Virus record (IMG/VR): IMGVR_UViG_2585427787_000014
Length of the DNA stretch: 40,925 nt
Strand: one strand, 5' to 3'
DNA from: a virus
Lineage: Duplodnaviria > Heunggongvirae > Uroviricota > Caudoviricetes
Made by a program: the position numbers and the translations under genes. The notes under the pieces were generated by a model. It did not search any database and was not told the origin of the DNA. It was given only the letters and a program-made list of their open reading frames with translations. Within the stretch, counting starts at the first letter, position 1. Each line of letters starts with the position of its first letter. Positions 1 through 40,925 of the stretch are shown here, piece after piece.

Positions 1-516
1 ATGAAATTTAAAAAATGTCTTCTGCCTGTGGCAATGTTAGCGTCATTCACTCTGGCAGGATGCCAGTCAAATGCTGACGATCATGCTGCCGATGTTTATC
101 AAACCGATCAACTGAATACCAAACAAGAAACTAAAACCGTTAATATTATTTCCATTCTTCCCGCAAAAGTTGCCGTAGACAACTCCCAAAATAAACGGAA
201 CGCACAAGCCTTCGGCGCGCTTATTGGCGCAGTCGCTGGCGGTGTTATCGGCCACAACGTCGGGTCTGGCAGCAATTCCGGAACGACGGCAGGTGCAGTT
301 GGCGGCGGAGCTGTAGGCGCGGCAGCGGGTTCTATGGTGAATGATAAAACCTTAGTGGAAGGTGTTTCTTTAACCTATAAGGAAGGCACCAAAGTGTATA
401 CCTCTACCCAGGTGGGTAAAGAGTGCCAGTTTACGACAGGTTTAGCCGTTGTTATTACCACGACGTATAACGAAACGCGTATTCAGCCAAATACCAAATG
501 TCCTGAAAAGAGCTAA
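1..516 (+). CDS. lipoprotein with Gly/Ala-rich glycine-zipper segment; probably a host gene flanking the prophage
   Basis: 171-aa ORF; signal peptide ending in lipobox LAGC; GxxxG-rich stretch (AVAGGVIGHNVG...AVGGGAVGAAAG). Confidence 0.6.
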   Translation: MKFKKCLLPVAMLASFTLAGCQSNADDHAADVYQTDQLNTKQETKTVNIISILPAKVAVDNSQNKRNAQAFGALIGAVAGGVIGHNVGSGSNSGTTAGAVGGGAVGAAAGSMVNDKTLVEGVSLTYKEGTKVYTSTQVGKECQFTTGLAVVITTTYNETRIQPNTKCPEKS

Positions 517-531
517 TAATCAGGAGGAGTC

Positions 532-1071
532 ATGAAGAAAGTTTTTCTTTGCGCCATCTTAGCCTCCTTAAGCTATCCGGCTATCGCCTCATCATTGCAG
601 GATCAACTCTCTGCTGTCGCAGAAGCGGAACAGCAAGGTAAAAATGAAGAGCAAAGGCAGCATGACGAATGGGTCGCGGAGCGCAACAGGGAAATCCAGC
701 AAGAGAAGCAACGTCGCGCAAATGCCCAGGCCGCCGCTAACAAAAGAGCGGCAACGGCAGCGGCAAATAAGAAAGCTCGTCAGGATAAACTGGACGCCGA
801 AGCCTCTGCGGACAAAAAACGCGATCAAAGTTATGAAGATGAGCTACGCAGCTTAGAGATTCAGAAACAAAAACTGGCGCTGGCGAAAGAAGAAGCCCGT
901 GTTAAGCGAGAAAACGAATTTATCGATCAGGAACTGAAGCACAAAGCTGCGCAAACCGATGTGGTGCAATCTGAAGCTGACGCCAACAGAAATATGACTG
1001 AAGGCGGTCGCGATCTGATGAAAAGCGTGGGCAAAGCAGAAGAGAACAAATCGGACAGCTGGTTTAATTAA
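532..1071 (+). CDS. secreted, highly charged (K/E/Q/A-rich) coiled-coil protein; probably host
   Basis: 179-aa ORF with N-terminal signal peptide; AGGAGG Shine-Dalgarno upstream of ATG; followed by a strong terminator. Confidence 0.55.
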   Translation: MKKVFLCAILASLSYPAIASSLQDQLSAVAEAEQQGKNEEQRQHDEWVAERNREIQQEKQRRANAQAAANKRAATAAANKKARQDKLDAEASADKKRDQSYEDELRSLEIQKQKLALAKEEARVKRENEFIDQELKHKAAQTDVVQSEADANRNMTEGGRDLMKSVGKAEENKSDSWFN

Positions 1072-3187: not shown

Positions 3188-3204
3188 GTTACCCATCAGG
3201 TAAT
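3188..3204. promoter_or_regulatory. 17-bp palindrome copy (GTTACC-CATCA-GGTAAT) upstream of the lysis cassette
   Basis: Read directly from the sequence; between the tailspike stop (3211) and the holin start (3092). Confidence 0.5.
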
Positions 3205-5891: not shown

Positions 5892-5908
5892 ATTACCTTT
5901 CGGGTAAT
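5892..5908. promoter_or_regulatory. 17-bp palindrome copy (ATTACC-TTTCG-GGTAAT)
   Basis: Perfect inverted repeat; in the divergent region between the tailspike start (5788) and gene 5985-6242. Confidence 0.55.
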
Positions 5909-5944: not shown

Positions 5945-5964
5945 TACTGTATAAATATACAGTT
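5945..5964. promoter_or_regulatory. LexA (SOS) box
   Basis: TACTGTATAAATATACAGTT fits CTGT-N8-ACAG with an AT-rich spacer; ends 6 bp before the first ATG (5970) and 21 bp before the SD-preceded ATG (5985). Confidence 0.7.
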
Positions 5965-5984
5965 ATTGCATGGAGAAGATTAAG

Positions 5985-6242
5985 ATGCAGCAGTATCACT
6001 ATCCACTGGAAGACGGATTTACCGAAAGGATTCACACGCCGGGAGGCGTCAGGTCACTGGTGGAAGGATCGCACTTGATGAAATTACTCCGGGATCTCGA
6101 TAAGGATGGATTTAATGTCGATGGCCCACTTGCCGAACTGACTGCACTGATTAACTACGTCACCAGCTCACAGATGTCTATGCGGGATCTGCAAACACAT
6201 CTCGACTATTGTGCCGAACAATTACGAAAACAAACCAGATAA
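5985..6242 (+). CDS. small antirepressor-like protein; standalone homologue of the C-terminal domain of the Bro-N protein at 6558-7268
   Basis: GGAG Shine-Dalgarno 9 nt before ATG 5985 (alternative ATG at 5970). About 45% identity by eye over ~80 aa to the C-terminus of the 6558-7268 product (LMKLLRDLDKDGFNVDGPLAELT...RDLQTHLDY vs LMNLLNQLQDDGHDVSGAAAELT...RDIQTHAEY). Confidence 0.6.
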   Translation: MQQYHYPLEDGFTERIHTPGGVRSLVEGSHLMKLLRDLDKDGFNVDGPLAELTALINYVTSSQMSMRDLQTHLDYCAEQLRKQTR

Positions 6243-6272: not shown

Positions 6273-6289
6273 TTTACCTTTGCGGTAAA
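6273..6289. promoter_or_regulatory. 17-bp palindrome copy (TTTACC-TTTGC-GGTAAA)
   Basis: Embedded in a longer imperfect inverted repeat (GGAGTGCT...AGCACTCC) just downstream of gene 5985-6242. Confidence 0.5.
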
Positions 6290-6379
6290 TTTACATAGCA
6301 CTCCTCTTGTGCCATAGTAATCGGGCACTGGCAAAATCCAGTGCCGGGATTGGCGTCCCGAGTTACTAAGTGGCGCATA

Positions 6380-6401
6380 CCACGCCAGACGTGGTTTTTT
6401 T
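6380..6401 (+). terminator. rho-independent terminator
   Basis: Stem CCACG / CGTGG with loop CCAGA, followed by T7. Confidence 0.55.
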
Positions 6402-6557
6402 ATGCGTTAAGCACAGCTATATCCGAATTATGGTGGGCTGGGCAGGGGTCCGAAAGGACGCCGGTACCACTTAGGCCGGTACGCCAACCTTGTCCAGTTC
6501 ACCACCAGTAATTGGCGTTGCGGTGGTGATTAAAATCACTAAGTGGAGATAACCACC

Positions 6558-7268
6558 ATGGCTAATGCTCAAACTGCCATCTTCAAATTTGAATCTGTTA
6601 ACCCTATCCGTTCCATCATTATCGATGGCCAACCATGGTTTGTAGCCCAAGACGTTTGTAGTGCGCTGCGTATCCAAAACGTCACCCAAGCACTTGAAAA
6701 ACTGGATGATGATGAAAGGTCTATGTTCAACATAGGGCATGAACATCGTGCAATTTTTGACAGCCGAGTAAAAGAGATCAACATCATCTCCGAGTCAGGC
6801 CTCTACACACTGATCCTCCGCTGCCGCGACGCAGTGACACCAGGCACTATCCCATACCGCTTTCGTAAATGGGTTACAGGTGAGGTTCTTCCTCAGATCC
6901 GCCGCACCGGAAGTTACATTAAAAACTCGCTCCCGCAGGAAGAGCGCATAAAGATGGTTGCCGACCAGGTAGCCAACGCCACAGCATCAGCAGTGATGCA
7001 GGCGATGAAGATAGAGAACAAAACCTACAGTGCCCCACTGAAGCCCGGCTACCGCAGCCTGATTCATTCGCCGTCTGGTGTTCTCGGCCTGACGGAGAAC
7101 TCACTGCTGATGAATCTGCTGAACCAGTTACAGGACGACGGGCACGACGTATCGGGCGCGGCGGCGGAGCTGACCACCATGTTCTGCTACATCGTCGGTG
7201 TGAGCAAATGCCTGCGTGATATCCAGACGCACGCGGAGTACATCAACGACAAGGCAGGGTTCTTCTGA
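6558..7268 (+). CDS. Bro-N domain antirepressor-like protein
   Basis: GGAG 9 nt before ATG 6558 (track ORF begins at GTG 6543). N-terminus (AIFKFESVNPIRSIIIDGQPWFVAQDVCSALRI...) has Bro-N/antirepressor character; C-terminal ~80 aa paralogous to the 5985-6242 product. Confidence 0.6.
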   Translation: MANAQTAIFKFESVNPIRSIIIDGQPWFVAQDVCSALRIQNVTQALEKLDDDERSMFNIGHEHRAIFDSRVKEINIISESGLYTLILRCRDAVTPGTIPYRFRKWVTGEVLPQIRRTGSYIKNSLPQEERIKMVADQVANATASAVMQAMKIENKTYSAPLKPGYRSLIHSPSGVLGLTENSLLMNLLNQLQDDGHDVSGAAAELTTMFCYIVGVSKCLRDIQTHAEYINDKAGFF

Positions 7269-7339: not shown

Positions 7340-7356
7340 ATTACCTCAAGGGTAAA
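7340..7356. promoter_or_regulatory. 17-bp palindrome copy (ATTACC-TCAAG-GGTAAA)
   Basis: About 60 bp upstream of small ORF 7416-7595. Confidence 0.5.
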
Positions 7357-7415: not shown

Positions 7416-7595
7416 ATGCGAAACGAAAAATTGCAGATGCGTAGAGCGCAAGCTGCCGCAAGACGTTCTTTCAATGGAAGCGTAGAGTGCGTAAAAGTTA
7501 CTATGACAAAAGATCACGCAAGTCGCGTATCCCGCGCTTTCTTTGATTCTCGTAACAATAAGGAAAATTATGAGTTCGTCTGCGTCGCAGAATGA
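7416..7595 (+). CDS. small basic protein (59 aa) overlapping the start of the YafO-like gene; candidate antitoxin/regulator
   Basis: Not in the ORF track (<60 aa). ATG preceded by GAGGT; translation MRNEKLQMRRAQAAARRSFNGSVECVKVTMTKDHASRVSRAFFDSRNNKENYEFVCVAE; overlaps the next gene by 26 nt in another frame. Confidence 0.3.
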   Translation: MRNEKLQMRRAQAAARRSFNGSVECVKVTMTKDHASRVSRAFFDSRNNKENYEFVCVAE

Positions 7596-8115
7596 TAAAA
7601 ATCAAATTGTCAGATATAAGGGTCGAGTATTGCATACGCAAAATTTCTCGGCCCTTTGTGCATCTGATCTTGAGCTGAAGAAAGTATCTGATGCCTTTAC
7701 CCAGTATTGGAAAACGGGATACCATCCATCTCTTGGTAAAGATGCTGCATTTGCTCGTCCGACAGAAATGCTTAAACTAAATGTCAGGCATACTCATGTC
7801 GATAACCAAGACTATATTCCAGAAGATAGTGATAAAAAACACACTGGTAAAAAATCATCTTGGGATGCATGGAAAAAAATAGCGTCTGTGCAAGTAAAAT
7901 GCATACCAACAAGTAATTGCTTTTTAGTTTATTCGGTAAATCACAATCGTGATGCGCTGGTTATGTTTTTTGTTGACGCAGATGCCCACAACATAACTGA
8001 GCAAGAAGAGTTTAAAGAGGCAGCAATCACTATCAGTTATCAATTCTTTGAGAAAACAAAAACAGAACCAATGCCTTTAGAAGAAGATCTTTTTTCTGAT
8101 AAATGGAAGGAATAA
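7570..8115 (+). CDS. YafO-family toxin-like protein (type II TA-like candidate)
   Basis: AAGGA before ATG 7570 (track start 7543). Translation resembles E. coli YafO as I recall it (SLGKDAAF...NVRHTHV...CFLVYSV). AT-rich; has its own terminator. Confidence 0.45.
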   Translation: MSSSASQNDKNQIVRYKGRVLHTQNFSALCASDLELKKVSDAFTQYWKTGYHPSLGKDAAFARPTEMLKLNVRHTHVDNQDYIPEDSDKKHTGKKSSWDAWKKIASVQVKCIPTSNCFLVYSVNHNRDALVMFFVDADAHNITEQEEFKEAAITISYQFFEKTKTEPMPLEEDLFSDKWKE

Positions 8116-25609: not shown

Positions 25610-26500
25610 ATGCTTGACTTCATCCGTGACATTTACTCCTCTTTCCGCCAAGCATCTCTTGAGCGGGTGAAAAGCCCGTTCCTTGGGGCATTTGTTTTTT
25701 CCTGGCTTTGCTTTAATTGGCAGATGTTAGCAATTCTATTTTTTAGTTCTAAGGATATTGAAAAGCGCCTTGCTATTATTAATGGCTCTTTCGGCATCGT
25801 CAGCTTTTTAATTGCGCCAATATGCACTACAGCATTGATAGTTATCCTTTTACCGCAAATTAATAAATTGATTACAATAATACAAGATAAACCTAACTCA
25901 GACACAATTGAAATGAGCCTTGCATCTAAAATAAAGATCGCCGAACTGCAGCAACTATTAGCAGAAAATGAAGCAAGAAAGAAACTTGCTGATAAAAAAG
26001 AAGAACGCTTCATTGAAGAGAATATTATTTCAATAAAAAAAGACCATGAAAAAGCAATAGATAACCTTAAAGACAAAGAAAGTAAAATCTCAAATCTCAC
26101 GGACACAATAACTGAACTTCAGAGCAAACTGGTTAAAGCTGAGGCCACTCTCAAAGTTGAACAGGAGTCAAGATCCCAAGTGCAGAATGAATTGATTATT
26201 GAAAAAGAGAACAAGCGGAAATTAGAAGACAACATTCTGCACCTTAATTTAAGTTTAAAAAAAAACCAATCAGAATTGGCCATTGCAAAAGAAGCCTATG
26301 ATAATACCTTGATGGCTTATAATGAACTTAACACAACATTAAAAAAAGCAGAAAGCTCAATAATAAACTTCAATGCTAACTTTCCTTTTTTAACTGACAT
26401 AAATAACAGCACCCCAAATACATACTTAAAAATAAATAAAAATGCATGGGAGCATTTAGTTAGTTTAAATTTAAGTCTAAAGGAGAAAATACAAAAATAA
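25610..26500 (+). CDS. AT-rich accessory gene: membrane-anchored coiled-coil protein of unknown function (candidate exclusion/defence gene)
   Basis: 296-aa ORF on the strand opposite the structural genes, inserted between terminase and portal. Two N-terminal hydrophobic helices, then a long K/E/L/N-rich heptad-like region. AT content visibly much higher than surrounding phage genes. Confidence 0.6.
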   Translation: MLDFIRDIYSSFRQASLERVKSPFLGAFVFSWLCFNWQMLAILFFSSKDIEKRLAIINGSFGIVSFLIAPICTTALIVILLPQINKLITIIQDKPNSDTIEMSLASKIKIAELQQLLAENEARKKLADKKEERFIEENIISIKKDHEKAIDNLKDKESKISNLTDTITELQSKLVKAEATLKVEQESRSQVQNELIIEKENKRKLEDNILHLNLSLKKNQSELAIAKEAYDNTLMAYNELNTTLKKAESSIINFNANFPFLTDINNSTPNTYLKINKNAWEHLVSLNLSLKEKIQK

Positions 26501-26523: not shown

Positions 26524-27993
26524 TTACTCATACGGGTCATAATCTATTATAGCCTTACCCTGCAGCTGGCGCGGATCATTAAGTTTTTTTGTGACCGGAA
26601 AAGCAAACGTCAGCAGCAGCGCGTCACCCTTGCCCGGCGAGCGGCCCAAGCGCTCTTTGATATCTTCCTTCGGCTCAATGACGATCTTGCCGTCCACCCT
26701 GACTTTGTACTCTGCCGCAGACAGGTCATCAGCCGTCTCCTGGTCGTCCAGCGCGCCGCCTAGCTTCAGCCACGTCTTGCAGCTGTTGAACATCTCTCCG
26801 CGCTTATTTAGCATCTGGGGATCGGTCGAGCCGCCGCCGAACGGGATTAGCTGCCATGTCCTGCCCCAGCCGTCACCGATGGACTTCAGCCCGGTGCCGT
26901 AACCGAAGTCGATGAACACCGCGTCAGCCTGGTACTGGTCTTCAAAGTCGGCGATTCGCTTAGCCATAATCAAATCGTCGGTGGTCTTGTTGCCGGTCCA
27001 GAGCACTTTGCTGTGCAGCCCTTGCCGCAGGTATATCACCGCGTCATCAACTCCGGAATACGCCGGGTCGACGCCGATAATCACAGGAGCGTGAGCAACC
27101 TGCCCGGCGGTAACCACCCGCTTCATGGCCTCGTCTGTAAGGCCTGTTGGGATAAACTGGAGTTCTGACGCGTCAGGGAAGATCCCCCGCACGCGGACCT
27201 TCACGAAGTCGCTGTCTTCGCCGTAGTCGTCAACCCATTTCTGCAGCTGCTGCTTGTTTGTGCCTTCCACGGTGCGGCTGTCAATCTGCGCGCACTTCCA
27301 GCGGTGCTTGTACTTGCGGAAGCATTCGCGGAAGCGCCCGGTGTTACGCGTCGGGTTCCCAAACGCCACCCAGATAATTTCCGTGTCTTCGTCCGTCAGC
27401 GCACCTTCAGCAACTTCCCACACCAGATCTGCAATGTTGGACGCTTCATCGAATACCACGATGATACGCTTACGCTCGTTGTGCAGCCCGGCGAACGCCT
27501 CTGTGTTGTGCTCAGACCACGGTATTGCGTCAGCTCGCCAGCGCTTGTCGTGGCCTGGGTCATTGCTGTACATCGCCGTGGCGGTGCAGGTGAACCACTC
27601 TTTCGTGATAGCCAGATTCGACCATTTGATGATTTCCGGCCATGTCTTGGTGCGCAGCTGGTTGTCGGTGTTGGCGGTCACCACGACCTTACAATCCTCG
27701 CAAGTGGACATGCCCCAGTTGATCAGCATTGAGATGAATGCGGATTTACCAATACCGTGACCAGAAGCGCGTGCCAGCATAAGCGGCTGATATCGCGTCT
27801 CTGGATTCTGCAGGTGATCACGTATCTCTCGGAACGCATCGGCCTGCCACTGACGTGGACCGGTGGCATGTGCCAGTTCAGTCCCCTCTTCCCCCCACGG
27901 GAACGCATAGAGGGCATAACCAAGCGGATCGTGAGTAAACCCTGCAATATCCTCGATCAACTGCTCTTCAGGAGATAACACTGTATCTGTCAC
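26524..27993 (-). CDS. terminase large subunit
   Basis: 489-aa ORF; N-terminal ATPase-like region (GHGIGKS...VFDEA) and C-terminal nuclease-like region; ATGA overlap with the upstream small-subunit gene. Confidence 0.8.
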   Translation of the reverse strand: MTDTVLSPEEQLIEDIAGFTHDPLGYALYAFPWGEEGTELAHATGPRQWQADAFREIRDHLQNPETRYQPLMLARASGHGIGKSAFISMLINWGMSTCEDCKVVVTANTDNQLRTKTWPEIIKWSNLAITKEWFTCTATAMYSNDPGHDKRWRADAIPWSEHNTEAFAGLHNERKRIIVVFDEASNIADLVWEVAEGALTDEDTEIIWVAFGNPTRNTGRFRECFRKYKHRWKCAQIDSRTVEGTNKQQLQKWVDDYGEDSDFVKVRVRGIFPDASELQFIPTGLTDEAMKRVVTAGQVAHAPVIIGVDPAYSGVDDAVIYLRQGLHSKVLWTGNKTTDDLIMAKRIADFEDQYQADAVFIDFGYGTGLKSIGDGWGRTWQLIPFGGGSTDPQMLNKRGEMFNSCKTWLKLGGALDDQETADDLSAAEYKVRVDGKIVIEPKEDIKERLGRSPGKGDALLLTFAFPVTKKLNDPRQLQGKAIIDYDPYE

Positions 27994-28586
27994 TGATTAC
28001 CATCCTGACGTTCTTTGAGTCGCTTCCTGGCTGCTGCTATGCGATCAGCAATTGTCACATTCACATTAACATCCAGGCGTTCTTTGAATGCGTTGACGTC
28101 GACGTGCTTACCAATCAGTTCGAGGTTCTTCACCTTGTCAGGCCATTTAATTTTTTTGAGGATTGTCTCTATCGAATCCTCGTTCATGTTCATGATGGTC
28201 GATGACAGATCAAAGCCGCTAAGCGTAGTGCGCCAGATTTTCGGCCACTCGCGGATTGGCTTAAGGCTCCCATCGTCGTTGAGGATGTCGATCACGTCCA
28301 TCTGGTCGATCTCCACCAGGCGCATGAGAACGTAATCAGCACTGACGCGCATTCGTTTGTTGCGCTCCTCCATCAACTCGGCAATCCGTTTTTGAATGCG
28401 TTCATCGCGCATCATGACACTGGCTTTAACTGCCGCTGTATTTGGGGAGAATCCTGCATTAATCGCTGCCTGAGTCTGGTTTTCAGGAGTTTTGATGTAT
28501 GACTGGCAATAAGCCTCCTGCATTGCTGTTAGTGGCTTAAATTGCGTTGATTTGCGTTTATAGGTTTTAGGTTCAGCAGGCATCAT
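27990..28586 (-). CDS. terminase small subunit
   Basis: Start taken at MMPAEPKTYK with GGTGG 4 nt upstream (track ORF extends to 28664). Basic helical protein directly upstream of the large subunit. Confidence 0.55.
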   Translation of the reverse strand: MMPAEPKTYKRKSTQFKPLTAMQEAYCQSYIKTPENQTQAAINAGFSPNTAAVKASVMMRDERIQKRIAELMEERNKRMRVSADYVLMRLVEIDQMDVIDILNDDGSLKPIREWPKIWRTTLSGFDLSSTIMNMNEDSIETILKKIKWPDKVKNLELIGKHVDVNAFKERLDVNVNVTIADRIAAARKRLKERQDGNQ

Positions 28587-28602
28587 AACCACCGTGGTAA
28601 TA

Positions 28603-28619
28603 GTTACCGTTGTGGTAAT
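28603..28619. promoter_or_regulatory. 17-bp palindrome copy (GTTACC-GTTGT-GGTAAT)
   Basis: Within direct repeats GTGGTAATAGTTACC / GTGGTAATAGTACC, 18 bp upstream of the proposed small-terminase start. Confidence 0.5.
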
Positions 28620-28660
28620 AGTACCATGCAAAATAAAGCCGCCATAGTTGGCGGCAGTAT

Positions 28661-28894
28661 TCAAAGTCCATCAAATTCATCGTAAAAACTCTCGTCAAGA
28701 TACCCTTCCCATTTACCGCGAATGAAAATTACATCCTCGCCGCAAGGGTGCTGACTGTCGATAACTATATCCCTCCTGGCGCAACCATACTTATGCATGA
28801 GAAATTTAACCTCTTTCGGAAAATTTGCTGAGTTATCTCTCATATCTTCAAGGTCGTAGCGTATTTTTGGCATAACACCTTCGTGACATGTCAC
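28661..28894 (-). CDS. hypothetical protein
   Basis: 77-aa ORF, ATGA-coupled to the upstream gene. Confidence 0.5.
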   Translation of the reverse strand: MTCHEGVMPKIRYDLEDMRDNSANFPKEVKFLMHKYGCARRDIVIDSQHPCGEDVIFIRGKWEGYLDESFYDEFDGL

Positions 28895-32044: not shown

Positions 32045-32061
32045 TTTACCCCTGAGGTAAT
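32045..32061. promoter_or_regulatory. 17-bp palindrome copy (TTTACC-CCTGA-GGTAAT) abutting a start codon
   Basis: Ends 3 nt from the ATG of gene 31698-32042; adjacent to the AAAAACCACATAAGA element (32062-32080). Confidence 0.5.
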
Positions 32062-32106
32062 TAAAAACCACATAAGACATGAAATCAATAGATTTTAGAA
32101 TATTTT

Positions 32107-32123
32107 ATTACCCAACAGGTAAT
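32107..32123. promoter_or_regulatory. 17-bp palindrome copy (ATTACC-CAACA-GGTAAT)
   Basis: Perfect; between the P-like gene stop (32160) and gene 31698-32042. Confidence 0.55.
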
Positions 32124-34052: not shown

Positions 34053-34069
34053 ATTACCTTTGAGGTACG
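34053..34069. promoter_or_regulatory. 17-bp palindrome copy, imperfect (ATTACC-TTTGA-GGTACG)
   Basis: Between a hairpin after the Cro-like gene and the next gene. Confidence 0.4.
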
Positions 34070-34083
34070 AATAGATATGAAAA

Positions 34084-34100
34084 GACCGCCGGATGGCGGC
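34084..34100 (-). terminator. hairpin terminator after the Cro-like gene (tR1-like position)
   Basis: Stem CCGCC / GGCGG with loop GGAT; on the minus strand followed by TCTTTTCAT. Confidence 0.4.
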
Positions 34101-34123
34101 CTACAGAGGGTTGTGGCTGGATA

Positions 34124-34354
34124 TCATGAGTAGAAGAAGTATGCCAGTTCTGCTTTTGAGCGCAGCCATTGTCTTGTTTTACAGGCTTTAAAAAGCCCAT
34201 TCATCAATACCTTACCTGGCATTTTGCGCTTACCTGTTAAGTGAGTCTGGATATAGTGACTCGTCGTTCCGGCTTCCTGTGCGAAGGCTTCACGCTCGTC
34301 CGGAGTAAGTGCAAGCCAGTGCTTTTTGAAATCGAAATGTCCGTTATCGCTCAT
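34124..34354 (-). CDS. Cro-like small HTH regulator (first gene of the replication-side operon)
   Basis: 76-aa ORF with HTH-like segment (REAFAQEAGTTSHYIQTHLTGKRKMP); divergent from the CI-like gene across an operator-rich region. Confidence 0.55.
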   Translation of the reverse strand: MSDNGHFDFKKHWLALTPDEREAFAQEAGTTSHYIQTHLTGKRKMPGKVLMNGLFKACKTRQWLRSKAELAYFFYS

Positions 34355-34389
34355 AGCTATTGCCTGATATTTATTTCAGATAATAAATA

Positions 34390-34406
34390 TTCACCCATAA
34401 GGTAAC
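34390..34406. promoter_or_regulatory. operator-like palindrome, imperfect (TTCACC-CATAA-GGTAAC); site 1 of 3 in the divergent switch region
   Basis: 37 bp upstream of the Cro-like start. Confidence 0.45.
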
Positions 34407-34420
34407 AAAAATCAAGGATA

Positions 34421-34437
34421 GTTACCTATGAGGTGCA
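34421..34437. promoter_or_regulatory. operator-like palindrome, imperfect (GTTACC-TATGA-GGTGCA); site 2 of 3
   Basis: Directly abuts site 3. Confidence 0.4.
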
Positions 34438-34454
34438 TTTACCTGTTGGGTAAT
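34438..34454. promoter_or_regulatory. operator-like palindrome (TTTACC-TGTTG-GGTAAT); site 3 of 3
   Basis: 55 bp upstream of the CI-like ATG (34509); same spacer TGTTG as the copy at 35150. Confidence 0.5.
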
Positions 34455-34508
34455 ATTGCTTTAAATTGAATCATCTACTGATTCATATATGAGGCGATTT
34501 TCCAGAAA

Positions 34509-35093
34509 ATGAAAAGTATCCAGGACGTCCGCAGGCAAAATCTCAACGACTTGATCGACCGTGAATTCAATGGTGTTCAGACGCGGATGGCAGAAAAACT
34601 TGGAACTCAGGCAAATCTGGTAAACCGCTGGGCTCTTGGCAAGAAGGTTATCGGCGACCAGGTTGCGCGAAAAATTGAAGCTGCCGCCAATAAACCCCGT
34701 AACTGGCTTGATATCGATCGCTCGCTTTCTCAGGAAGGTTTTCAGCCTGTCGGCCCGAGTGATATAGGTCAGCTGGCTGCTCACAACCTGGAACGCTGGA
34801 TGAGCGAAAGCCGCGACCTTTCAACGCAGGGAAAACTACACCGCGCATCCGGCGTCGCCCAGGTGACAATCAGCCGCCTGTTAAACAATGAGGTCAGCGT
34901 TTCCATTTCCACCCTGGAGAATGTTGCATCCGCATTCGGGCGTCATGGCTATGAATTACTGATTCACCCGCACGACCCTGCGACTATCAACTATGACCGC
35001 TCGCGCTACGCATTGTTACCCGAAACCGAGAAAGCAAAGATCGAAAGTTACATTGAATTTGTCATCAACCAGAACGAAAAAAACAAACAATAA
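34509..35093 (+). CDS. CI-like repressor with two HTH (XRE-type) domains and no recognisable peptidase domain
   Basis: 194-aa ORF; HTH-like segments near residues 20-60 (GVQTRMAEKLGTQANLVNRWALGKK) and 95-150 (LHRASGVAQVTISRLLNNEV); no LexA/S24-like Ser-Lys region seen; followed by a terminator. Confidence 0.55.
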   Translation: MKSIQDVRRQNLNDLIDREFNGVQTRMAEKLGTQANLVNRWALGKKVIGDQVARKIEAAANKPRNWLDIDRSLSQEGFQPVGPSDIGQLAAHNLERWMSESRDLSTQGKLHRASGVAQVTISRLLNNEVSVSISTLENVASAFGRHGYELLIHPHDPATINYDRSRYALLPETEKAKIESYIEFVINQNEKNKQ

Positions 35094-35114
35094 AACTATA
35101 GTTTTCAGCAAGTA

Positions 35115-35136
35115 AGCCGCCTCATGGCGGCTTTTT
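35115..35136 (+). terminator. rho-independent terminator after the repressor gene
   Basis: Stem GCCGCC / GGCGGC with loop TCAT, followed by T6. Confidence 0.65.
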
Positions 35137-35149
35137 TATTGCCTGTTAG

Positions 35150-35166
35150 ATTACCTGTTGGGTAAT
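35150..35166. promoter_or_regulatory. operator-like palindrome (ATTACC-TGTTG-GGTAAT), upstream site of the leftward-type early promoter
   Basis: Perfect; about 20 bp upstream of a TTGACA hexamer (35186-35191). Confidence 0.55.
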
Positions 35167-35211
35167 TTTTTTAACTCATATCTATTGACATCAAACCAGA
35201 TACGCATAATT

Positions 35212-35228
35212 ATTACCTCAACGGTAAC
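35212..35228. promoter_or_regulatory. operator-like palindrome (ATTACC-TCAAC-GGTAAC) overlapping the putative -10 region
   Basis: Starts 20 bp after TTGACA and ends 18 bp before ATG 35247. Confidence 0.55.
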
Positions 35229-35246
35229 AGACCGAGGTAACAAGTT

Positions 35247-35401: not shown

Positions 35402-35701
35402 ATGAACGTTAATCAGCAGAAAAATCTTCAAAAAATCATGCTGGCATTCGACAAGGACTACCGCCTGTCAGAACAGCTATATGACCGACAAGTTGAACTG
35501 ATTGAGAGCATCCGACTTCATCAACTGTCCTCAACTTTCGACGTTGTAACAGGCAAAGGCGTTCGCCAGGAAGTACTGGAGGCTGCTAAAGACAGCCCTG
35601 AGTTCGAAGAACTGATGGATGCCTATCGGCGAGAGGCAATGGCAATTATCGCCCGCTGGGATCTGGCGGATCAGCTTGATGGACAGAGGGACGCGGCATG
35701 A
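35402..35701 (+). CDS. hypothetical early protein
   Basis: GGAGGG before ATG 35402 (track start 35387); helical, charged. Confidence 0.5.
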   Translation: MNVNQQKNLQKIMLAFDKDYRLSEQLYDRQVELIESIRLHQLSSTFDVVTGKGVRQEVLEAAKDSPEFEELMDAYRREAMAIIARWDLADQLDGQRDAA

Positions 35702-35904
35702 AACCAACACTCCTCTCATTGCTGCGAGGTGGAAAACACAGCATCCGAGATATGGCAAAGATTCTTGGTATCTCAAGATCGAAGGTTTCTTGGTTCATCG
35801 CTGAGCTTGAACGTCGCAAATGGGTAGAGGTAACCAGGAGCGCAATATATTTCCACGATGGAACCCGTTCCAACAAGCAGAACGAATACAAGGTTAAGTT
35901 ATGA
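35698..35904 (+). CDS. small HTH/winged-helix DNA-binding protein
   Basis: 68-aa ORF, ATGA-coupled; segment IRDMAKILGISRSKVSWFIAELERRKWV is HTH-like. Confidence 0.5.
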   Translation: MKPTLLSLLRGGKHSIRDMAKILGISRSKVSWFIAELERRKWVEVTRSAIYFHDGTRSNKQNEYKVKL

Positions 35905-36722
35905 ATACTGGCATCTATTTCGACATCAGCAATGAGGACTACCACGCCGGTGACGGCGTGAGTAAGTCGCAACTGGACATGGTTGCCAAGAATCCGGCGC
36001 TTCTTAAATGGGTTCAGGCAGCACCAGAAGACGAAGAGAAAAAGTCTGCACTAGATATGGGAACTGCATTGCACTGTCTGCTTCTTGAACCTGGAGAATT
36101 CGACAAACGCTTCATTGTTTCACCAAAGTTCGATCGTCGGACGAAACAAGGTAAAGCTGACGAAGAAGCATTTCTTCGTGATGTAGCGGATATGGGGATT
36201 GCGGTACTTGATGCCGAGCAGTGGCGGAAACTGGAGCTGATGCGTGATAGCGCAATGGCTCACCCGGCGGCACGCTGGATGCTGGAAGCACCTGGTTACT
36301 GCGAAGCATCAATGTACTGGAACGATGAAGAGACTGGTGAGTTGTGCCGCATTCGTCCAGACAAATGGCTGAACGAGCACAACGTGATCGTCGACGTGAA
36401 AAAGGTTGCAGATATGGACCGTTTTGCACGCCACATTGAGGAATTCCGCTACCACGTGCAGGACGCAATGTACCGCGAAGGCGCAATGAGGGTTACTGGT
36501 CAGCCGCATGGTTTTTTCTTTCTTGCCGTGAGCGAAAGCATTGATTGTGGTCGGTATCCGGTACGCGTGTTCGAGCTGGATGCGCAGGATGTCGATGCCG
36601 GGCACGCTCTGTTCCGCCGGGATCTGAATACCTATCACGAATGCCGCATCAATGATGAATGGGGCGGTGTGGAAATCATTAAACGCCCTGAGTGGGCACG
36701 CAAACAGGATATGTACATATGA
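35901..36722 (+). CDS. PD-(D/E)XK-type recombination exonuclease (Exo/RecE-like partner of the annealing protein)
   Basis: 273-aa ORF, ATGA-coupled to the Bet-like gene; D...D/E-x-K-like signature around IRPDKW...VIVDVKKV. Confidence 0.55.
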   Translation: MNTGIYFDISNEDYHAGDGVSKSQLDMVAKNPALLKWVQAAPEDEEKKSALDMGTALHCLLLEPGEFDKRFIVSPKFDRRTKQGKADEEAFLRDVADMGIAVLDAEQWRKLELMRDSAMAHPAARWMLEAPGYCEASMYWNDEETGELCRIRPDKWLNEHNVIVDVKKVADMDRFARHIEEFRYHVQDAMYREGAMRVTGQPHGFFFLAVSESIDCGRYPVRVFELDAQDVDAGHALFRRDLNTYHECRINDEWGGVEIIKRPEWARKQDMYI

Positions 36723-37660
36723 GCAACGACATCGCAAACATCAACGCACCAGTAGACACAGCAATCGCTGGAACTGCTGCAACTATTTTCAGCCCAGACG
36801 GCTTGAACCAACTGATGAAATTCGCCGAGGTAATGGCGAAAAGCCGCGTAACGGTACCGGCGCACCTCTCCGGGAAACCAGCTGATTGCATGGCCGTGGC
36901 AATGCAGGCTGCGCAGTGGGGAATGAACCCGTTTGCCGTTGCTCAGAAAACCCATGTTGTGAACGGCACGCTAGGTTATGAAGCCCAATTAGTAAACGCA
37001 GTTATCTCAACGATGTCGCCAACAAAAGATCGCATCAACTACGAGTGGTTCGGGCCGTGGGAACGCGTGATCGGTAAGTTTGTTGAGAAAACATCCAAAA
37101 ACGGCCATCCATATATCGCACCAGGCTGGACTCTAAAAGACGAAGAAGGCTGCGGTGTTCGCGTATGGGCAACCATGAAGGGCGAGGATCAACCTCGAGT
37201 GCTTGAGTTAATGCTGTCTCAAGCACAGGTAAGAAACTCCACACTTTGGGCCAGTGATCCGAAACAACAACTCGCATACCTTGCGACAAAACGCTGGTCT
37301 CGCTTGCACTGTCCTGACGTAATCATGGGCGTCTACACACCAGACGAATTACAGGAAACGGCACCGCGCGTTGAGCGAGACATTACTCCGCAAACGACCA
37401 CTGCTGCGGGAATGAACAGTCTGATCAACGCTAAACCAGTGAAAAAGCCTGATGAGCAAACGCGTAAAGCGGATAGCCGTGATCCAGAAGAAATGCTGAT
37501 GGCCTTTACCAGCGCAGCGATGAATTACAGCACTGTCTCCGAACTAGATAAGGCTTACAAATACATTGCACAAAAACTTTCAGATGATGACGAACTGCTG
37601 GCAAAAGCCACCGACGTTTACAGCGTTCGTCGGGAAGAATTAAACGAAACATCTATGTAA
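36719..37660 (+). CDS. single-strand annealing protein, Bet/Red-beta-like
   Basis: Start MSNDIAN overlapping the nuclease stop (ATGA). Similarity to lambda Bet as I recall it (TLWASDPKQQLAYLATKRWSRLHCPDVIMGVYTPDE vs GPWQSHPKRMLRHKAMIQCARLAFGFAGIYDKDE). Confidence 0.6.
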   Translation: MSNDIANINAPVDTAIAGTAATIFSPDGLNQLMKFAEVMAKSRVTVPAHLSGKPADCMAVAMQAAQWGMNPFAVAQKTHVVNGTLGYEAQLVNAVISTMSPTKDRINYEWFGPWERVIGKFVEKTSKNGHPYIAPGWTLKDEEGCGVRVWATMKGEDQPRVLELMLSQAQVRNSTLWASDPKQQLAYLATKRWSRLHCPDVIMGVYTPDELQETAPRVERDITPQTTTAAGMNSLINAKPVKKPDEQTRKADSRDPEEMLMAFTSAAMNYSTVSELDKAYKYIAQKLSDDDELLAKATDVYSVRREELNETSM

Positions 37661-39668: not shown

Positions 39669-40925
39669 TTATTTATTACTGTCTTCCATCCACTTCTCAA
39701 ACTTCGACGGGGAGAACGGAATCAGATCCGTATGCTCCCCGTCAATCCAAGAATCAATCATATCGGCCCACTGCTGCAACATGTAGGCGCGCTGTCTGGC
39801 GTATTCCGCTTTGTTATATACGGCGCGCACACCTTTCTGCTCATGTGCCAGAGCCTTTTCAATCCAGTCTGAAGGATAACCAGCCTCATGCAACAACGTA
39901 CTGGCTGTACGGCGCATATCGTGTACGGTAAAATCCTGAATATGCTCACCATCTTCATTTATTATTTTCACCGTTCTGTCGATCAGAGAGTTCAGCGCGG
40001 CATTAGATAATGGCTTCCGGAAATTGTAACGACCAGGAACCAGATATTCACTTCCACCAGCGCACATCTGCAACCCGACCAATATATCCTGTGCCTGTTT
40101 AGGCAGGTAAATAACGTGCGCCCGGCTTCCCTTCATGCGGTCTGGAGGAATTGTCCATGTCCATTTTTTAAAATCTATTTCATCCCACGTTGCATTGGTG
40201 AATTCGCCTTTACGAACCATAGTGATAAGCACCAACTTTAAAGCCATTTTCATAGTACCCATAGCACCAATGGCATCCAGCGTGCGGAAGAACAGGCCAA
40301 TTTCTTCTGGTGTCAGTGTTCGCTCTCGTGGTTTAAATATGGCGATAGACGAAGGTTTAATGTCAGCCGCAGGATTAAACAAACCATGACCACGGTCATT
40401 GGCGTGACGGTATACGCTGCTGATGATCTCCCTGGCCTGTACTGCTGTTGCACGGCCACCGCGTTCGACAATCCGGTCACACAAATCACGAACCATCGAT
40501 GTGGTAATTTCAGTCATCATTTTGTTGCCAAGAACCGGAAGTATGTCACGGTCGATCACCGCCTGCTTCATTGCGCGGGTACTGTCAGCCAGGATGACGT
40601 GTTTCATATAACTGTCGGTATGTACCGCAAACGTCTCGGCACCACGAATCTTTTTGATACCGTCACGTTTAGCCGCAGCCGGTGACTGGCCTGCTTTAAG
40701 CAGCTTCTTTGCAGCAATCAGTTCTTCTCGCGCTTCTGCCAGGCTGATACCGTCACGCCCATACTGCCCGATTACCAGCGTTTCGCGGCGACCGTTGATA
40801 CGGTAGTCGTAGCGAAACGAGACCGTGCCTGACGTAAGAACAGCTACATACAGCCCGTCACGATCGGAGACCTTGTACAGTTTGTCCTGCGGCTTGAGGT
40901 TTTTTAATTTTGTATCGGTAAGCAC
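39669..40925 (-). CDS. int: tyrosine integrase, P4-like (N-terminal arm-binding domain); 5' end at or just beyond the window edge
   Basis: 418-aa ORF reaching the window end; N-terminus (LTDTKLKNLKPQDKLYKVSDRDGLYVAV) typical of P4-type integrases; C-terminal catalytic R...HxxR...Y pattern (HDMRRTA...Y). Confidence 0.8.
   Translation of the reverse strand: MLTDTKLKNLKPQDKLYKVSDRDGLYVAVLTSGTVSFRYDYRINGRRETLVIGQYGRDGISLAEAREELIAAKKLLKAGQSPAAAKRDGIKKIRGAETFAVHTDSYMKHVILADSTRAMKQAVIDRDILPVLGNKMMTEITTSMVRDLCDRIVERGGRATAVQAREIISSVYRHANDRGHGLFNPAADIKPSSIAIFKPRERTLTPEEIGLFFRTLDAIGAMGTMKMALKLVLITMVRKGEFTNATWDEIDFKKWTWTIPPDRMKGSRAHVIYLPKQAQDILVGLQMCAGGSEYLVPGRYNFRKPLSNAALNSLIDRTVKIINEDGEHIQDFTVHDMRRTASTLLHEAGYPSDWIEKALAHEQKGVRAVYNKAEYARQRAYMLQQWADMIDSWIDGEHTDLIPFSPSKFEKWMEDSNK

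What the first reader, a model, noticed from the sequence alone, without database searches (positions are those of the whole stretch)
34084..35228. Immunity region resembles lambda but with a double-HTH, apparently non-cleavable repressor
The layout is: Cro-like gene with a tR1-like hairpin, three closely spaced operator-like palindromes (34390, 34421, 34438), divergent CI-like gene, terminator, then a TTGACA hexamer bracketed by two further palindromes (35150, 35212) before the recombination operon. The repressor appears to have two HTH domains in one chain. That could let a monomer bind both half-sites of the palindrome.
Basis: partly seen in the sequence, partly recalled or inferred. Interest (0 to 1): 0.55.

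Follow-up and report, generated by a model that had tools for sequence, protein, structure and literature searches.

The report
Known phiV10-type Rep/Ant immunity switch
This is the ordinary immunity region of a phiV10/epsilon15-like E. coli prophage: its repressor is not cut during DNA damage but is pulled off the DNA by a small LexA-controlled antirepressor, a mechanism already solved structurally in the related Salmonella phage SPC32H.

Summary

The window is a phiV10-like Uetakevirus. The 194-aa protein is 100% identical to the repressor of phiV10 (gp40, annotated "two helix-turn-helix motifs") and of vB_EcoP_ZX5 (ORF21). In ZX5, overexpressing ORF21 shut down lytic transcription.

The protein is a full-length homologue of the SPC32H repressor Rep (PDB 5D50/5D4Z). 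By homology:
- The N-terminal helix-turn-helix (HTH) domain binds DNA.
- The second HTH-like domain is a dimerisation domain.
- The C-terminal tail tetramerises and binds the antirepressor.

"Non-cleavable" is supported. There is no S24 peptidase domain. The window also carries an SPC32H-type ant gene (5985-6242) behind a perfect LexA box (5947-5962).

"One monomer reads both half-sites" is not supported. The half-sites are identical, the two HTH domains are unrelated in sequence, and the homologue binds DNA as a tetramer.

The same operator sits at about nine promoter regions across the genome. That is already annotated in the epsilon15 GenBank record.

Verdict: real, coherent and already known. 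Interest is low.

The parts
34083..34102 (-).
   Evidence: 8-bp stem with 6 GC pairs, followed by TTTCAT. Annotated as a terminator in phiV10.
34124..34354 (-). Cro-position small HTH regulator gene (76 aa, homologue of PhiV10p41 and epsilon15 gp39)
   Evidence: PHROG 35 'transcriptional repressor', E 5.6e-13. 76% identical to SPC32H_042, with an invariant AGTTSHYIQTHLT motif. Weak profile hit to an immunity repressor HTH, 8BNY, E 0.41. Cro function is inferred from position only.
34391..34405 (.). Operator (1 mismatch), nearest the Cro-position gene; lies in the spacer of the predicted rightward promoter (-35 near 34415-34403, -10 near 34391-34380, minus strand)
   Evidence: Position conserved in five phages.
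34422..34436 (.). Middle operator (2 mismatches here; a perfect palindrome at the same position in SPC32H and BUCT711)
34439..34453 (.). Operator (exact), nearest rep; overlaps the predicted -35 (TTTACC, 34438-34443) of the rep promoter
34509..35093 (+). Repressor gene rep (194 aa): DNA-binding HTH domain about 1-70, flexible linker about 60-83, HTH-fold middle dimerisation domain about 84-152, C-terminal tetramerisation and Ant-binding tail about 153-194
   Evidence: PDB 5D50_A, E 4e-42 over residues 1-190. Foldseek top hits are 5D50 and 5D4Z. AlphaFold2 secondary structure. 100% identical to phiV10 gp40 and ZX5 ORF21. Domain names taken from PMC9986798.
35114..35133 (+). Terminator after rep
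   Evidence: 8-bp stem with 6 GC pairs and a TTTTTATT tail. Annotated in phiV10.
35151..35165 (.). Upstream operator of the early-left promoter (exact), 62 bp from its partner
35185..35213 (+). Early-left promoter (TTGACA, 17-nt spacer, AATTAT) driving gp39, gp38, a small wHTH gene, exonuclease and RecT
   Evidence: 10 of 12 matches. CTATTGACA is invariant in five phages.
35213..35227 (.). Downstream operator of the early-left promoter (exact), overlapping the -10 and the transcription start
32046..32122 (-). Second copy of the same cassette (operator, CTATTGAT, -10 fused to operator; 62 bp between sites), upstream of the DUF1064 gene and later early-right genes
5893..5907 (.). Operator between the divergent tail-fibre and ant promoters, abutting a TTTGCA -35-like hexamer
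   Evidence: The equivalent site is annotated 'protein_bind repressor' in epsilon15.
5947..5962 (.). LexA (SOS) box CTGTATAAATATACAG, 23 nt upstream of the ant start codon
   Evidence: Conserved in five phages.
5985..6242 (+). Small antirepressor gene ant (85 aa counted from the second ATG, which follows a GGAG ribosome-binding site)
   Evidence: PDB 5D50_E 'Anti-repressor protein', E 1.6e-46; 83 residues align with few substitutions. Start codon inferred from the alignment.
6274..6288 (.). Operator abutting the -35 (TTTACA, 6290) of a promoter whose predicted start coincides with the isrK match
6325..6509 (+). isrK-type sRNA (6325-6401) and C4-type antisense RNA (6426-6509) preceding the second antirepressor gene
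   Evidence: Rfam, above gathering score: 67.2 bits against 50, and 66 bits against 45.
6543..7268 (+). Bro-N protein whose C-terminal residues 156-233 form an Ant-type domain (a second antirepressor)
   Evidence: Pfam Bro-N, E 1e-19. 44% identical to the small Ant, E 2e-17. PHROG 130 'anti-repressor Ant'.
3189..3203 (.). Operator upstream of the lysis cassette
   Evidence: Syntenic sites in phiV10, SPC32H, Tyrion and epsilon15.
7341..7355 (.). Operator downstream of the Bro-N/Ant gene and upstream of ORF 7543-8115
24948..24962 (.). Operator upstream of the portal/head operon
   Evidence: The syntenic site is annotated as a repressor site in epsilon15 (2931-2947).
25563..25577 (.). Operator overlapping a predicted promoter for ORF 25610-26500
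28586..28618 (.). Two adjacent operators (1 mismatch and exact, 18 bp apart) at the start of the small-terminase gene
   Evidence: The syntenic site is annotated as a repressor site in epsilon15 (12-27).
34054..34068 (.). Operator-like site (1 mismatch) between the terminator and the gp42/replication genes
   Evidence: Syntenic 1-mismatch sites in phiV10 and Tyrion.

Best explanation
The region is the immunity switch of a phiV10-like Uetakevirus prophage and works like the Rep/Ant switch of Salmonella phage SPC32H.

Rep (34509-35093) is a three-part repressor:
- an N-terminal Xre-type HTH domain that reads the palindrome aTTACC-N5-GGTAAt;
- a second HTH-fold domain that serves as a dimerisation module;
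- a C-terminal strand-helix tail that assembles dimers into tetramers and is the docking site for the antirepressor.

Pairs of N-terminal domains bind the operators. Three operators lie between rep and the Cro-position gene and block the rightward promoter. One of them overlaps the rep promoter, so autoregulation is likely. Two operators 62 bp apart bracket the early-left promoter, and further copies lie at most other promoter regions of the phage.

Rep has no autocleavage domain. Induction goes through LexA. DNA damage removes LexA from the SOS box in front of ant (5985-6242). Ant then binds Rep's C-terminal part, breaks the tetramer and releases it from the DNA.

A second Ant-domain protein, fused to a Bro-N domain (6543-7268) and preceded by isrK/C4-type RNAs, probably provides a second, RNA-controlled route.

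Shown here: homology, domain architecture, operator statistics and conservation, the LexA box, and the presence of ant. Inferred by homology: tetramer binding, the role of the middle domain, and the Ant mechanism. Inferred from position only: the Cro role of the 76-aa protein, which promoter each operator controls, and autoregulation.
For: - Identity of the element: about 98% DNA identity to phiV10, PAS61, ZX5 and others. Rep is 100% identical to phiV10 gp40 and ZX5 ORF21.
- Rep homology: PDB 5D50_A, E 4e-42 over residues 1-190, and 5D4Z. Foldseek top hits are 5D50 and 5D4Z.
- Structure model: the AlphaFold2 model shows two helical bundles, a disordered linker and a C-terminal helix.
- Ant: PDB 5D50_E, E 1.6e-46.
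- LexA box: CTGTATAAATATACAG at 5947-5962. The operator/-35/LexA box/RBS/ATG arrangement is conserved in five phages.
- No S24 peptidase domain.
- Operators: 12 exact copies against 0.03 expected; 12 of 14 intergenic in phiV10, p = 4.5e-13; the same motif and syntenic positions in phiV10, Tyrion, SPC32H, BUCT711 and epsilon15. The epsilon15 record annotates them as repressor binding sites.
- Reading head: the recognition helix NLVNRW is invariant in four phages, alongside the invariant TTACC half-site. The N-terminal domain is basic and the most conserved.
- Literature:
  - Rep binds as a tetramer, with 'trans' pairs of DNA-binding domains; an Ant tetramer splits it (PMC9638917).
  - Domain layout: DNA-binding, middle dimerisation and C-terminal tetramerisation/Ant-binding domains (PMC9986798).
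  - A LexA-controlled Ant inactivates the repressor (PMC7380047).
  - ZX5 ORF21 overexpression abolishes free phage and lytic transcripts (PMC9782041).
  - phiV10-species prophages are induced 21- and 47-fold by a DNA-damaging microcin (bioRxiv 10.64898/2026.05.26.727859).
Against: - Nothing here contradicts the model, but several links are indirect.
- Rep is only 42% identical to the structurally characterised SPC32H Rep (32% in the middle domain).
- I could not read the two primary SPC32H papers, so the operator sequence they tested is not confirmed by me.
- The middle domain keeps conserved Gln118, Thr120 and Arg123 in its third helix. That would also be compatible with a residual DNA contact.
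- The Cro-position protein is 76% identical between phiV10-type phages and SPC32H and could bind the same palindrome.
- The ZX5 experiments are overexpression assays, not binding assays.
Confidence: 0.85

Rival explanations
1. One reading: Rep is a single-chain, two-headed DNA binder. One monomer places its N-terminal HTH on one half-site and its second HTH on the other.
For: - Two HTH_3-type stretches in one chain.
- Two five-helix bundles joined by a flexible linker of about 24 residues.
- The third helix of the second domain has conserved Gln118, Thr120 and Arg123.
Against: - The half-sites are identical and dyad-symmetric in 12 exact sites, yet the two domains share no detectable similarity and have different third helices.
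- Only the N-terminal domain is basic and has an invariant recognition helix.
- In SPC32H Rep the second domain is a dimerisation domain. The tetramer binds DNA and the dimer binds weakly.
Confidence: 0.04
2. The TTACC-N5-GGTAA palindromes are read mainly by the small Cro-position protein (or another conserved phage protein) rather than by Rep.
For: The 76-aa protein has an invariant HTH motif and is 76% identical between phages whose Reps are only 42-43% identical, while the half-site core is the same in all of them.
Against: - Rep's recognition helix is equally invariant.
- SPC32H Rep is reported to bind palindromic DNA sites, and this is the only enriched palindrome in SPC32H.
- epsilon15 annotates the sites as repressor sites.
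- As in lambda, both proteins may share the sites, which would not contradict the main model.
Confidence: 0.07
3. Lambda-type induction: Rep is inactivated by RecA-stimulated self-cleavage, and the ant genes are accessory.
For: phiV10-species prophages respond to DNA damage.
Against: - No S24 peptidase domain or catalytic Ser/Lys module.
- The closest solved homologue works through Ant.
- A conserved LexA box sits in front of ant.
Confidence: 0.03

Closest known systems
Salmonella phage SPC32H Rep/Ant antirepression switch (Kim & Ryu 2013; Kim et al. 2016; PDB 5D50, 5D4Z)
   Same: - Same genus (Uetakevirus) and same gene order.
- Rep is homologous over its full length (E 4e-42).
- The small Ant is closely similar (E 1.6e-46).
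- LexA box in front of ant.
- Same TTACC-N5-GGTAA palindrome at syntenic positions, including the three-site region next to rep and the 62-bp pairs.
   Different: - Rep is only 42% identical (32% in the middle domain).
- The base next to the core half-site is mostly C/T here and mostly A/T in SPC32H, so the two phages may be heteroimmune.
- phiV10-type phages add an isrK/C4 RNA plus Bro-N/Ant-fusion module that I did not find annotated in SPC32H.
phiV10 gp40, vB_EcoP_ZX5 ORF21 and epsilon15 gp38 repressors
   Same: - Identical protein in phiV10 and ZX5.
- phiV10's GenBank note already says 'two helix-turn-helix motifs'.
- ZX5 ORF21 was shown to repress lytic genes.
- epsilon15 annotates scattered repressor sites with the same motif and cites 5D50.
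   Different: Nothing material. The window is another isolate of the same species-level phage.
Lambda CI/Cro/OR-OL immunity region
   Same: - Divergent repressor and Cro-position genes around three operators.
- A second operator set at the early-left promoter.
- Terminators after both genes.
- Recombination genes in the left operon.
   Different: - No S24 autocleavage domain.
- Oligomerisation through an HTH-fold middle domain plus a p53-like tetramerisation tail.
- Induction by an antirepressor.
- Operators also at late, lysis, packaging and ant promoters.
LexA-controlled antirepressors of Gifsy/Fels-2 prophages and coliphage 186 Tum
   Same: A non-cleavable repressor is inactivated by a small protein made after LexA self-cleavage (PMC7380047).
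   Different: From memory of the SPC32H paper's abstract, which I did not verify, this Ant family is structurally distinct from Tum and the Gifsy antirepressors.
Phage P1 immI (c4 RNA-icd-ant) and the scattered operators of P1 C1
   Same: - A C4-family antisense RNA sits directly upstream of an antirepressor gene.
- One repressor has operators scattered over many promoters.
   Different: - Rep is unrelated to P1 C1.
- The operators here are symmetric.
- No icd-like gene was examined.

Membership tests
SPC32H-type Rep/Ant switch | Repressor homologous to SPC32H Rep over its full length (DNA-binding, middle dimerisation and C-terminal tetramerisation/Ant-binding parts) | tested here: met
   phmmer against 5D50_A, E 4e-42, residues 1-190. 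Foldseek top hits 5D50 and 5D4Z; the C-terminal part has TM 0.77 at 3.0 A. AlphaFold2 domain layout.
SPC32H-type Rep/Ant switch | Small Ant protein of the 5D50_E family encoded in the same phage | tested here: met
   Window 5970-6242 against 5D50_E, E 1.6e-46.
SPC32H-type Rep/Ant switch | LexA box overlapping the ant promoter | tested here: met
   CTGTATAAATATACAG at 5947-5962, 23 nt upstream of the ATG. Conserved in five phages. LexA binding itself was not tested.
SPC32H-type Rep/Ant switch | Repressor lacks a RecA-dependent autocleavage module | tested here: met
   Pfam finds only HTH families and no Peptidase_S24. Absence of cleavage in vivo is not testable here.
SPC32H-type Rep/Ant switch | Rep binds DNA as a tetramer and is disassembled by tetrameric Ant | not testable with these tools
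   Known only for SPC32H (PMC9638917).
Lambda CI / LexA-like (S24) phage repressors | C-terminal S24 peptidase domain with a cleavage site and a Ser/Lys dyad | tested here: not met
   No S24 match. The C-terminal half is an HTH-fold bundle plus a helix.
Lambda CI / LexA-like (S24) phage repressors | N-terminal Xre/Cro-type HTH binding dyad-symmetric operators at divergent promoters | tested here: met
   (sequence level only).
   Not directly testable. Indirect evidence is against it: identical half-sites with dissimilar domains, charge and conservation confined to the N-terminal domain, and the homologue's middle domain is a dimerisation module.
P1 immI-type RNA-controlled antirepressor module | C4-family antisense RNA directly upstream of an antirepressor gene | tested here: met
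   Rfam RF01695, 66 bits (gathering score 45), at 6426-6509. Bro-N/Ant-domain gene at 6543-7268. Target sites for the RNA were not examined.

The most novel reading that the evidence does not exclude
The operator pairs with a conserved 62-bp (about six-turn) spacing bracket the early-left promoter and the second early promoter in all six phages examined. In this reading, each pair is clamped by a single Rep tetramer through its two 'trans' pairs of DNA-binding domains, forming a very small promoter loop. Ant would then release both sites at once by splitting the tetramer. The phiV10 lineage adds a second, isrK/C4-RNA-gated Ant-domain protein, giving the switch a non-SOS input. I could not read the primary SPC32H papers, so part of this may already be described.
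Probability: 0.3. Interest if true: 0.35.

Novelty: already known. Interest (0 to 1): 0.12.

Why it matters
It matters little as a discovery. The repressor, its two HTH motifs, its operators and its antirepressor-based induction are already annotated or published for identical or closely related phages.

It has some practical relevance. This immunity region sits in about 10% of complete E. coli genomes (540 of 5426), so the SPC32H mechanism probably governs induction of a very common E. coli prophage. Detailed operator occupancy and the role of the second antirepressor module have not, as far as I could see, been tested in the phiV10 lineage.

Tried and rejected
- **Primary papers not held.** I tried to read Kropinski 2007 on epsilon15, Perry 2009 on phiV10, Kim & Ryu 2013 and Kim et al. 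2016. None is held. I used secondary descriptions and the GenBank annotation instead.
- **Recent internal duplication of the HTH domain.** BLASTP of the N-terminal half against the C-terminal half found no alignment. Rejected.
- **A genus-wide operator network as a new finding.** I considered this. It is rejected as novel because epsilon15's record already annotates seven such 'repressor' sites.
- **The 62-bp spacing as independent evidence for looping.** I first thought the second pair (32046/32108) had a different promoter geometry. The alignment showed that both pairs belong to the same promoter/operator cassette. The spacing therefore cannot be separated from promoter geometry.
- **Cro-position protein.** Sequence and profile searches of the PDB gave nothing significant. 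Pfam and NCBIfam gave nothing. Its Cro role stays positional.
- **Other LexA boxes.** The matches at 20944 and 25477 have poor centres and were not pursued.
Full report
**What the window is.** The 1.9 kb around the finding is 97-98% identical to Escherichia phages phiV10, vB_EcoP_PAS61, vB_EcoP_ZX5, phiv142-3 and the O157 typing phages 9 and 10. It is 76-78% identical to Enterobacter phages Tyrion and BUCT554. All are temperate podoviruses of the genus Uetakevirus, the epsilon15-like phages. The same 1.1-kb region occurs at 95% identity or more in 540 of 5426 complete E. coli genomes. This is a very common prophage immunity region.

**Checking the observation.**
- A 76-aa gene at 34124-34354 (-) is followed by a hairpin terminator at 34102-34083.
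- The 154-bp divergent intergenic region holds three 15-bp palindromes: 34391 (one mismatch), 34422 (two mismatches) and 34439 (exact).
- The 194-aa gene at 34509-35093 (+) is followed by a strong terminator at 35114-35133.
- A TTGACA/AATTAT promoter at 35185-35213 is bracketed by exact palindromes at 35151 and 35213.
- An operon follows with two small genes, a wHTH gene, an exonuclease and RecT.

The palindrome TTACC-N5-GGTAA is far above chance. There are 12 exact copies in the window against 0.03 expected, and no shuffle out of 100 reached that number. An unbiased count of all 5+5 palindromes puts it first in the window and in phiV10, SPC32H, Tyrion and BUCT711. The three-site arrangement next to the repressor gene is conserved by position in all five phages, spaced 17 and then 30-31 bp. 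The degenerate middle site of the window is a perfect palindrome in SPC32H and BUCT711.

**What the 194-aa protein is.** It is 100% identical to phiV10 gp40, ZX5 ORF21 and the equivalent protein of a dozen other records. The phiV10 GenBank note already reads "two helix-turn-helix motifs (PF01381)".
- Pfam confirms two HTH_3 stretches. The stronger is at 106-147, a YdaS/Cro-type HTH lies at 21-61, and there is no S24 peptidase domain.
- Against solved structures, the protein aligns over residues 1-190 with the repressor of Salmonella phage SPC32H (5D50 chain A, E 4e-42) and with its C-terminal fragment (5D4Z).
- An AlphaFold2 model built on 42 family members (mean pLDDT 80.5) shows a helical bundle at 4-59, a low-confidence linker (pLDDT below 50 at 74-83), a second helical bundle at 84-151, and a short helix plus a long C-terminal helix at 164-193.
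- Foldseek returns 5D50 and 5D4Z as the best matches, followed by generic Xre-type HTH proteins.

**What is known about the homologue.** I could not open the primary papers. Two open-access papers summarise them.
- Rep of SPC32H has an N-terminal DNA-binding domain, a middle dimerisation domain, and a C-terminal domain that tetramerises and binds the antirepressor (PMC9986798).
- Rep binds DNA as a tetramer, and the dimer binds weakly.
- The pairs of DNA-binding domains that read the palindromic sites come from different dimers.
- Tetrameric Ant binds two Rep dimers and breaks the tetramer (PMC9638917).
- A review states that in such Salmonella prophages an antirepressor made after LexA self-cleavage inactivates the repressor (PMC7380047).

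For the identical E. coli protein, overexpression of ZX5 ORF21 reduced free phage to zero and cut endolysin and holin transcripts by more than 99.9% (PMC9782041). phiV10-species prophages are induced 21- and 47-fold by a DNA-damaging microcin.

**The induction arm is in the window too.**
- An ORF at 5970-6242 matches the SPC32H antirepressor chain 5D50_E at E 1.6e-46. The likely start is the second ATG at 5985, which follows a GGAG.
- Twenty-three bases upstream lies a perfect LexA box, CTGTATAAATATACAG, at 5947-5962.
- The order operator, TTTGCA, LexA box, GGAG, ATG is conserved in phiV10, Tyrion, SPC32H and BUCT711.

So "apparently non-cleavable" is right, and the reason is a LexA-controlled antirepressor.

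**Why the "one monomer, two half-sites" idea fails.**
- The two half-sites are identical and in perfect dyad symmetry. The two HTH domains share no detectable similarity and carry different third helices.
- The third helix of the N-terminal domain, NLVNRW, is invariant across four phages whose repressors are otherwise 43-78% identical. This matches the invariant TTACC core.
- The N-terminal domain is the most conserved part (54% against SPC32H, compared with 32% for the middle domain). It is basic (+4, family mean +4.0), while the middle domain is about neutral.
- By homology, the second domain is the dimerisation module.

I could not test DNA contact directly. The third helix of the middle domain does keep conserved Gln118, Thr120 and Arg123, so I leave a small residual probability.

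**How the switch most likely works.** This part is inference.
- The operator at 34391 lies in the spacer of the predicted rightward promoter.
- The operator at 34439 overlaps the predicted -35 of the rep promoter, so Rep probably blocks the Cro-side operon and limits its own synthesis.
- At the early-left promoter one operator lies about 20 bp upstream of the invariant CTATTGACA, and the other is fused to the -10.
- The same cassette, with the same 62-bp spacing, recurs at 32046/32108 upstream of the DUF1064 gene and is present in all six phages.

A tetramer with two pairs of DNA-binding domains could hold both sites of such a pair. The two cassettes are copies of one another, so the spacing alone does not prove it.

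The same operator also lies:
- upstream of the lysis genes (3189);
- between the tail-fibre and ant promoters (5893);
- upstream of an isrK/C4 RNA pair (6274);
- at 7341;
- upstream of the portal/head operon (24948);
- at 25563;
- twice at the start of the small-terminase gene (28586, 28604);
- after the Cro-side terminator (34054).

In phiV10, 12 of 14 sites lie in the 6.5% of the genome that is non-coding (p = 4.5e-13). I considered this a possible new point. However, the epsilon15 GenBank record already annotates seven "protein_bind: repressor, lysogeny" features with exactly this motif at the syntenic places, and it cites 5D50 for its repressor.

**A second antirepressor module.** Between ant and the next gene, Rfam finds an isrK-type sRNA (6325-6401, 67.2 bits) and a C4-type antisense RNA (6426-6509, 66 bits), both above their gathering scores. 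The gene that follows (6543-7268) has a Bro-N domain. Its C-terminal region, residues 156-233, is 44% identical to the small Ant (E 2e-17). This resembles the c4-ant arrangement of phage P1 immI and suggests a second, RNA-gated route to repressor inactivation. ZX5's Bro-N "anti-repressor" ORF4 reduced lysogeny when overexpressed, but I did not establish how similar ORF4 is to the window's protein.

**Verdict.** Its mechanistic proposal is wrong. The system is a member of the SPC32H-type Rep/Ant switch and is identical to the phiV10 and ZX5 repressor. It is already known, and interest is low.

Noticed in passing
window 6325-6509 (+): Rfam matches above gathering score to the isrK Hfq-binding sRNA (6325-6401) and the C4 antisense RNA (6426-6509). 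They lie between the small ant gene and the Bro-N/Ant-fusion gene, an arrangement like P1 immI.
   Followed up: partly
window 6543-7268 (+): A 241-aa protein with an N-terminal Bro-N domain. Its C-terminal region (residues 156-233) is 44% identical to the small SPC32H-type Ant. The phage therefore carries two Ant-domain proteins.
   Followed up: partly
window 3189, 5893, 6274, 7341, 24948, 25563, 28586, 28604, 32046, 32108, 34054: The immunity operator TTACC-N5-GGTAA also sits at most other promoter regions: lysis, tail fibre/ant, sRNA, head, terminase and second early promoter. It is syntenic across the genus and already annotated as repressor sites in epsilon15.
   Followed up: yes
window 28586-28618, inside ORF 27990-28664 (-): Two adjacent operators fall inside the 5' end of the small-terminase ORF as called here and in phiV10. 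In SPC32H, Tyrion and epsilon15 the equivalent sites lie upstream of the annotated start. The Pfam terminase match begins only at residue 45. The phiV10-type start codon is probably annotated too far upstream.
   Followed up: partly
window 35901-37660 (+): The exonuclease (273 aa) and RecT (322 aa) are separate ORFs that overlap by 31 nt. The phiV10 record annotates a single 1761-nt 'recET fusion'. This is either a frameshift difference or a sequencing error in one of the records.
   Followed up: no
window 35698-35904 (+): A 68-aa winged-helix (MarR/ArsR-like) ORF in the early-left operon, between the gp38 homologue and the exonuclease. It is not annotated in phiV10.
   Followed up: no
window 25285-25361 (+): tRNA-Arg (anticodon TCT) in the region between the head operon and ORF 25610-26500, flanked by operators at 24948 and 25563.
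   Followed up: no
window 1-1071 (+) and 39669-40925 (-): The window ends exactly at the integrase start. It begins with two plus-strand genes next to the lysis cassette: a Gly-zipper/TraT-like protein and a DUF5384 protein. This looks like a prophage cut at its attachment site with cargo genes at one end.
   Followed up: no
window 32046-32060 and 35228-35246: The downstream operator of the second early promoter also provides the Shine-Dalgarno sequence of the next gene (TTACCTCAGGGGTAAatcATG on the minus strand). This is conserved in six phages even where the downstream gene differs (DUF1064 or RuvC-like).
   Followed up: partly
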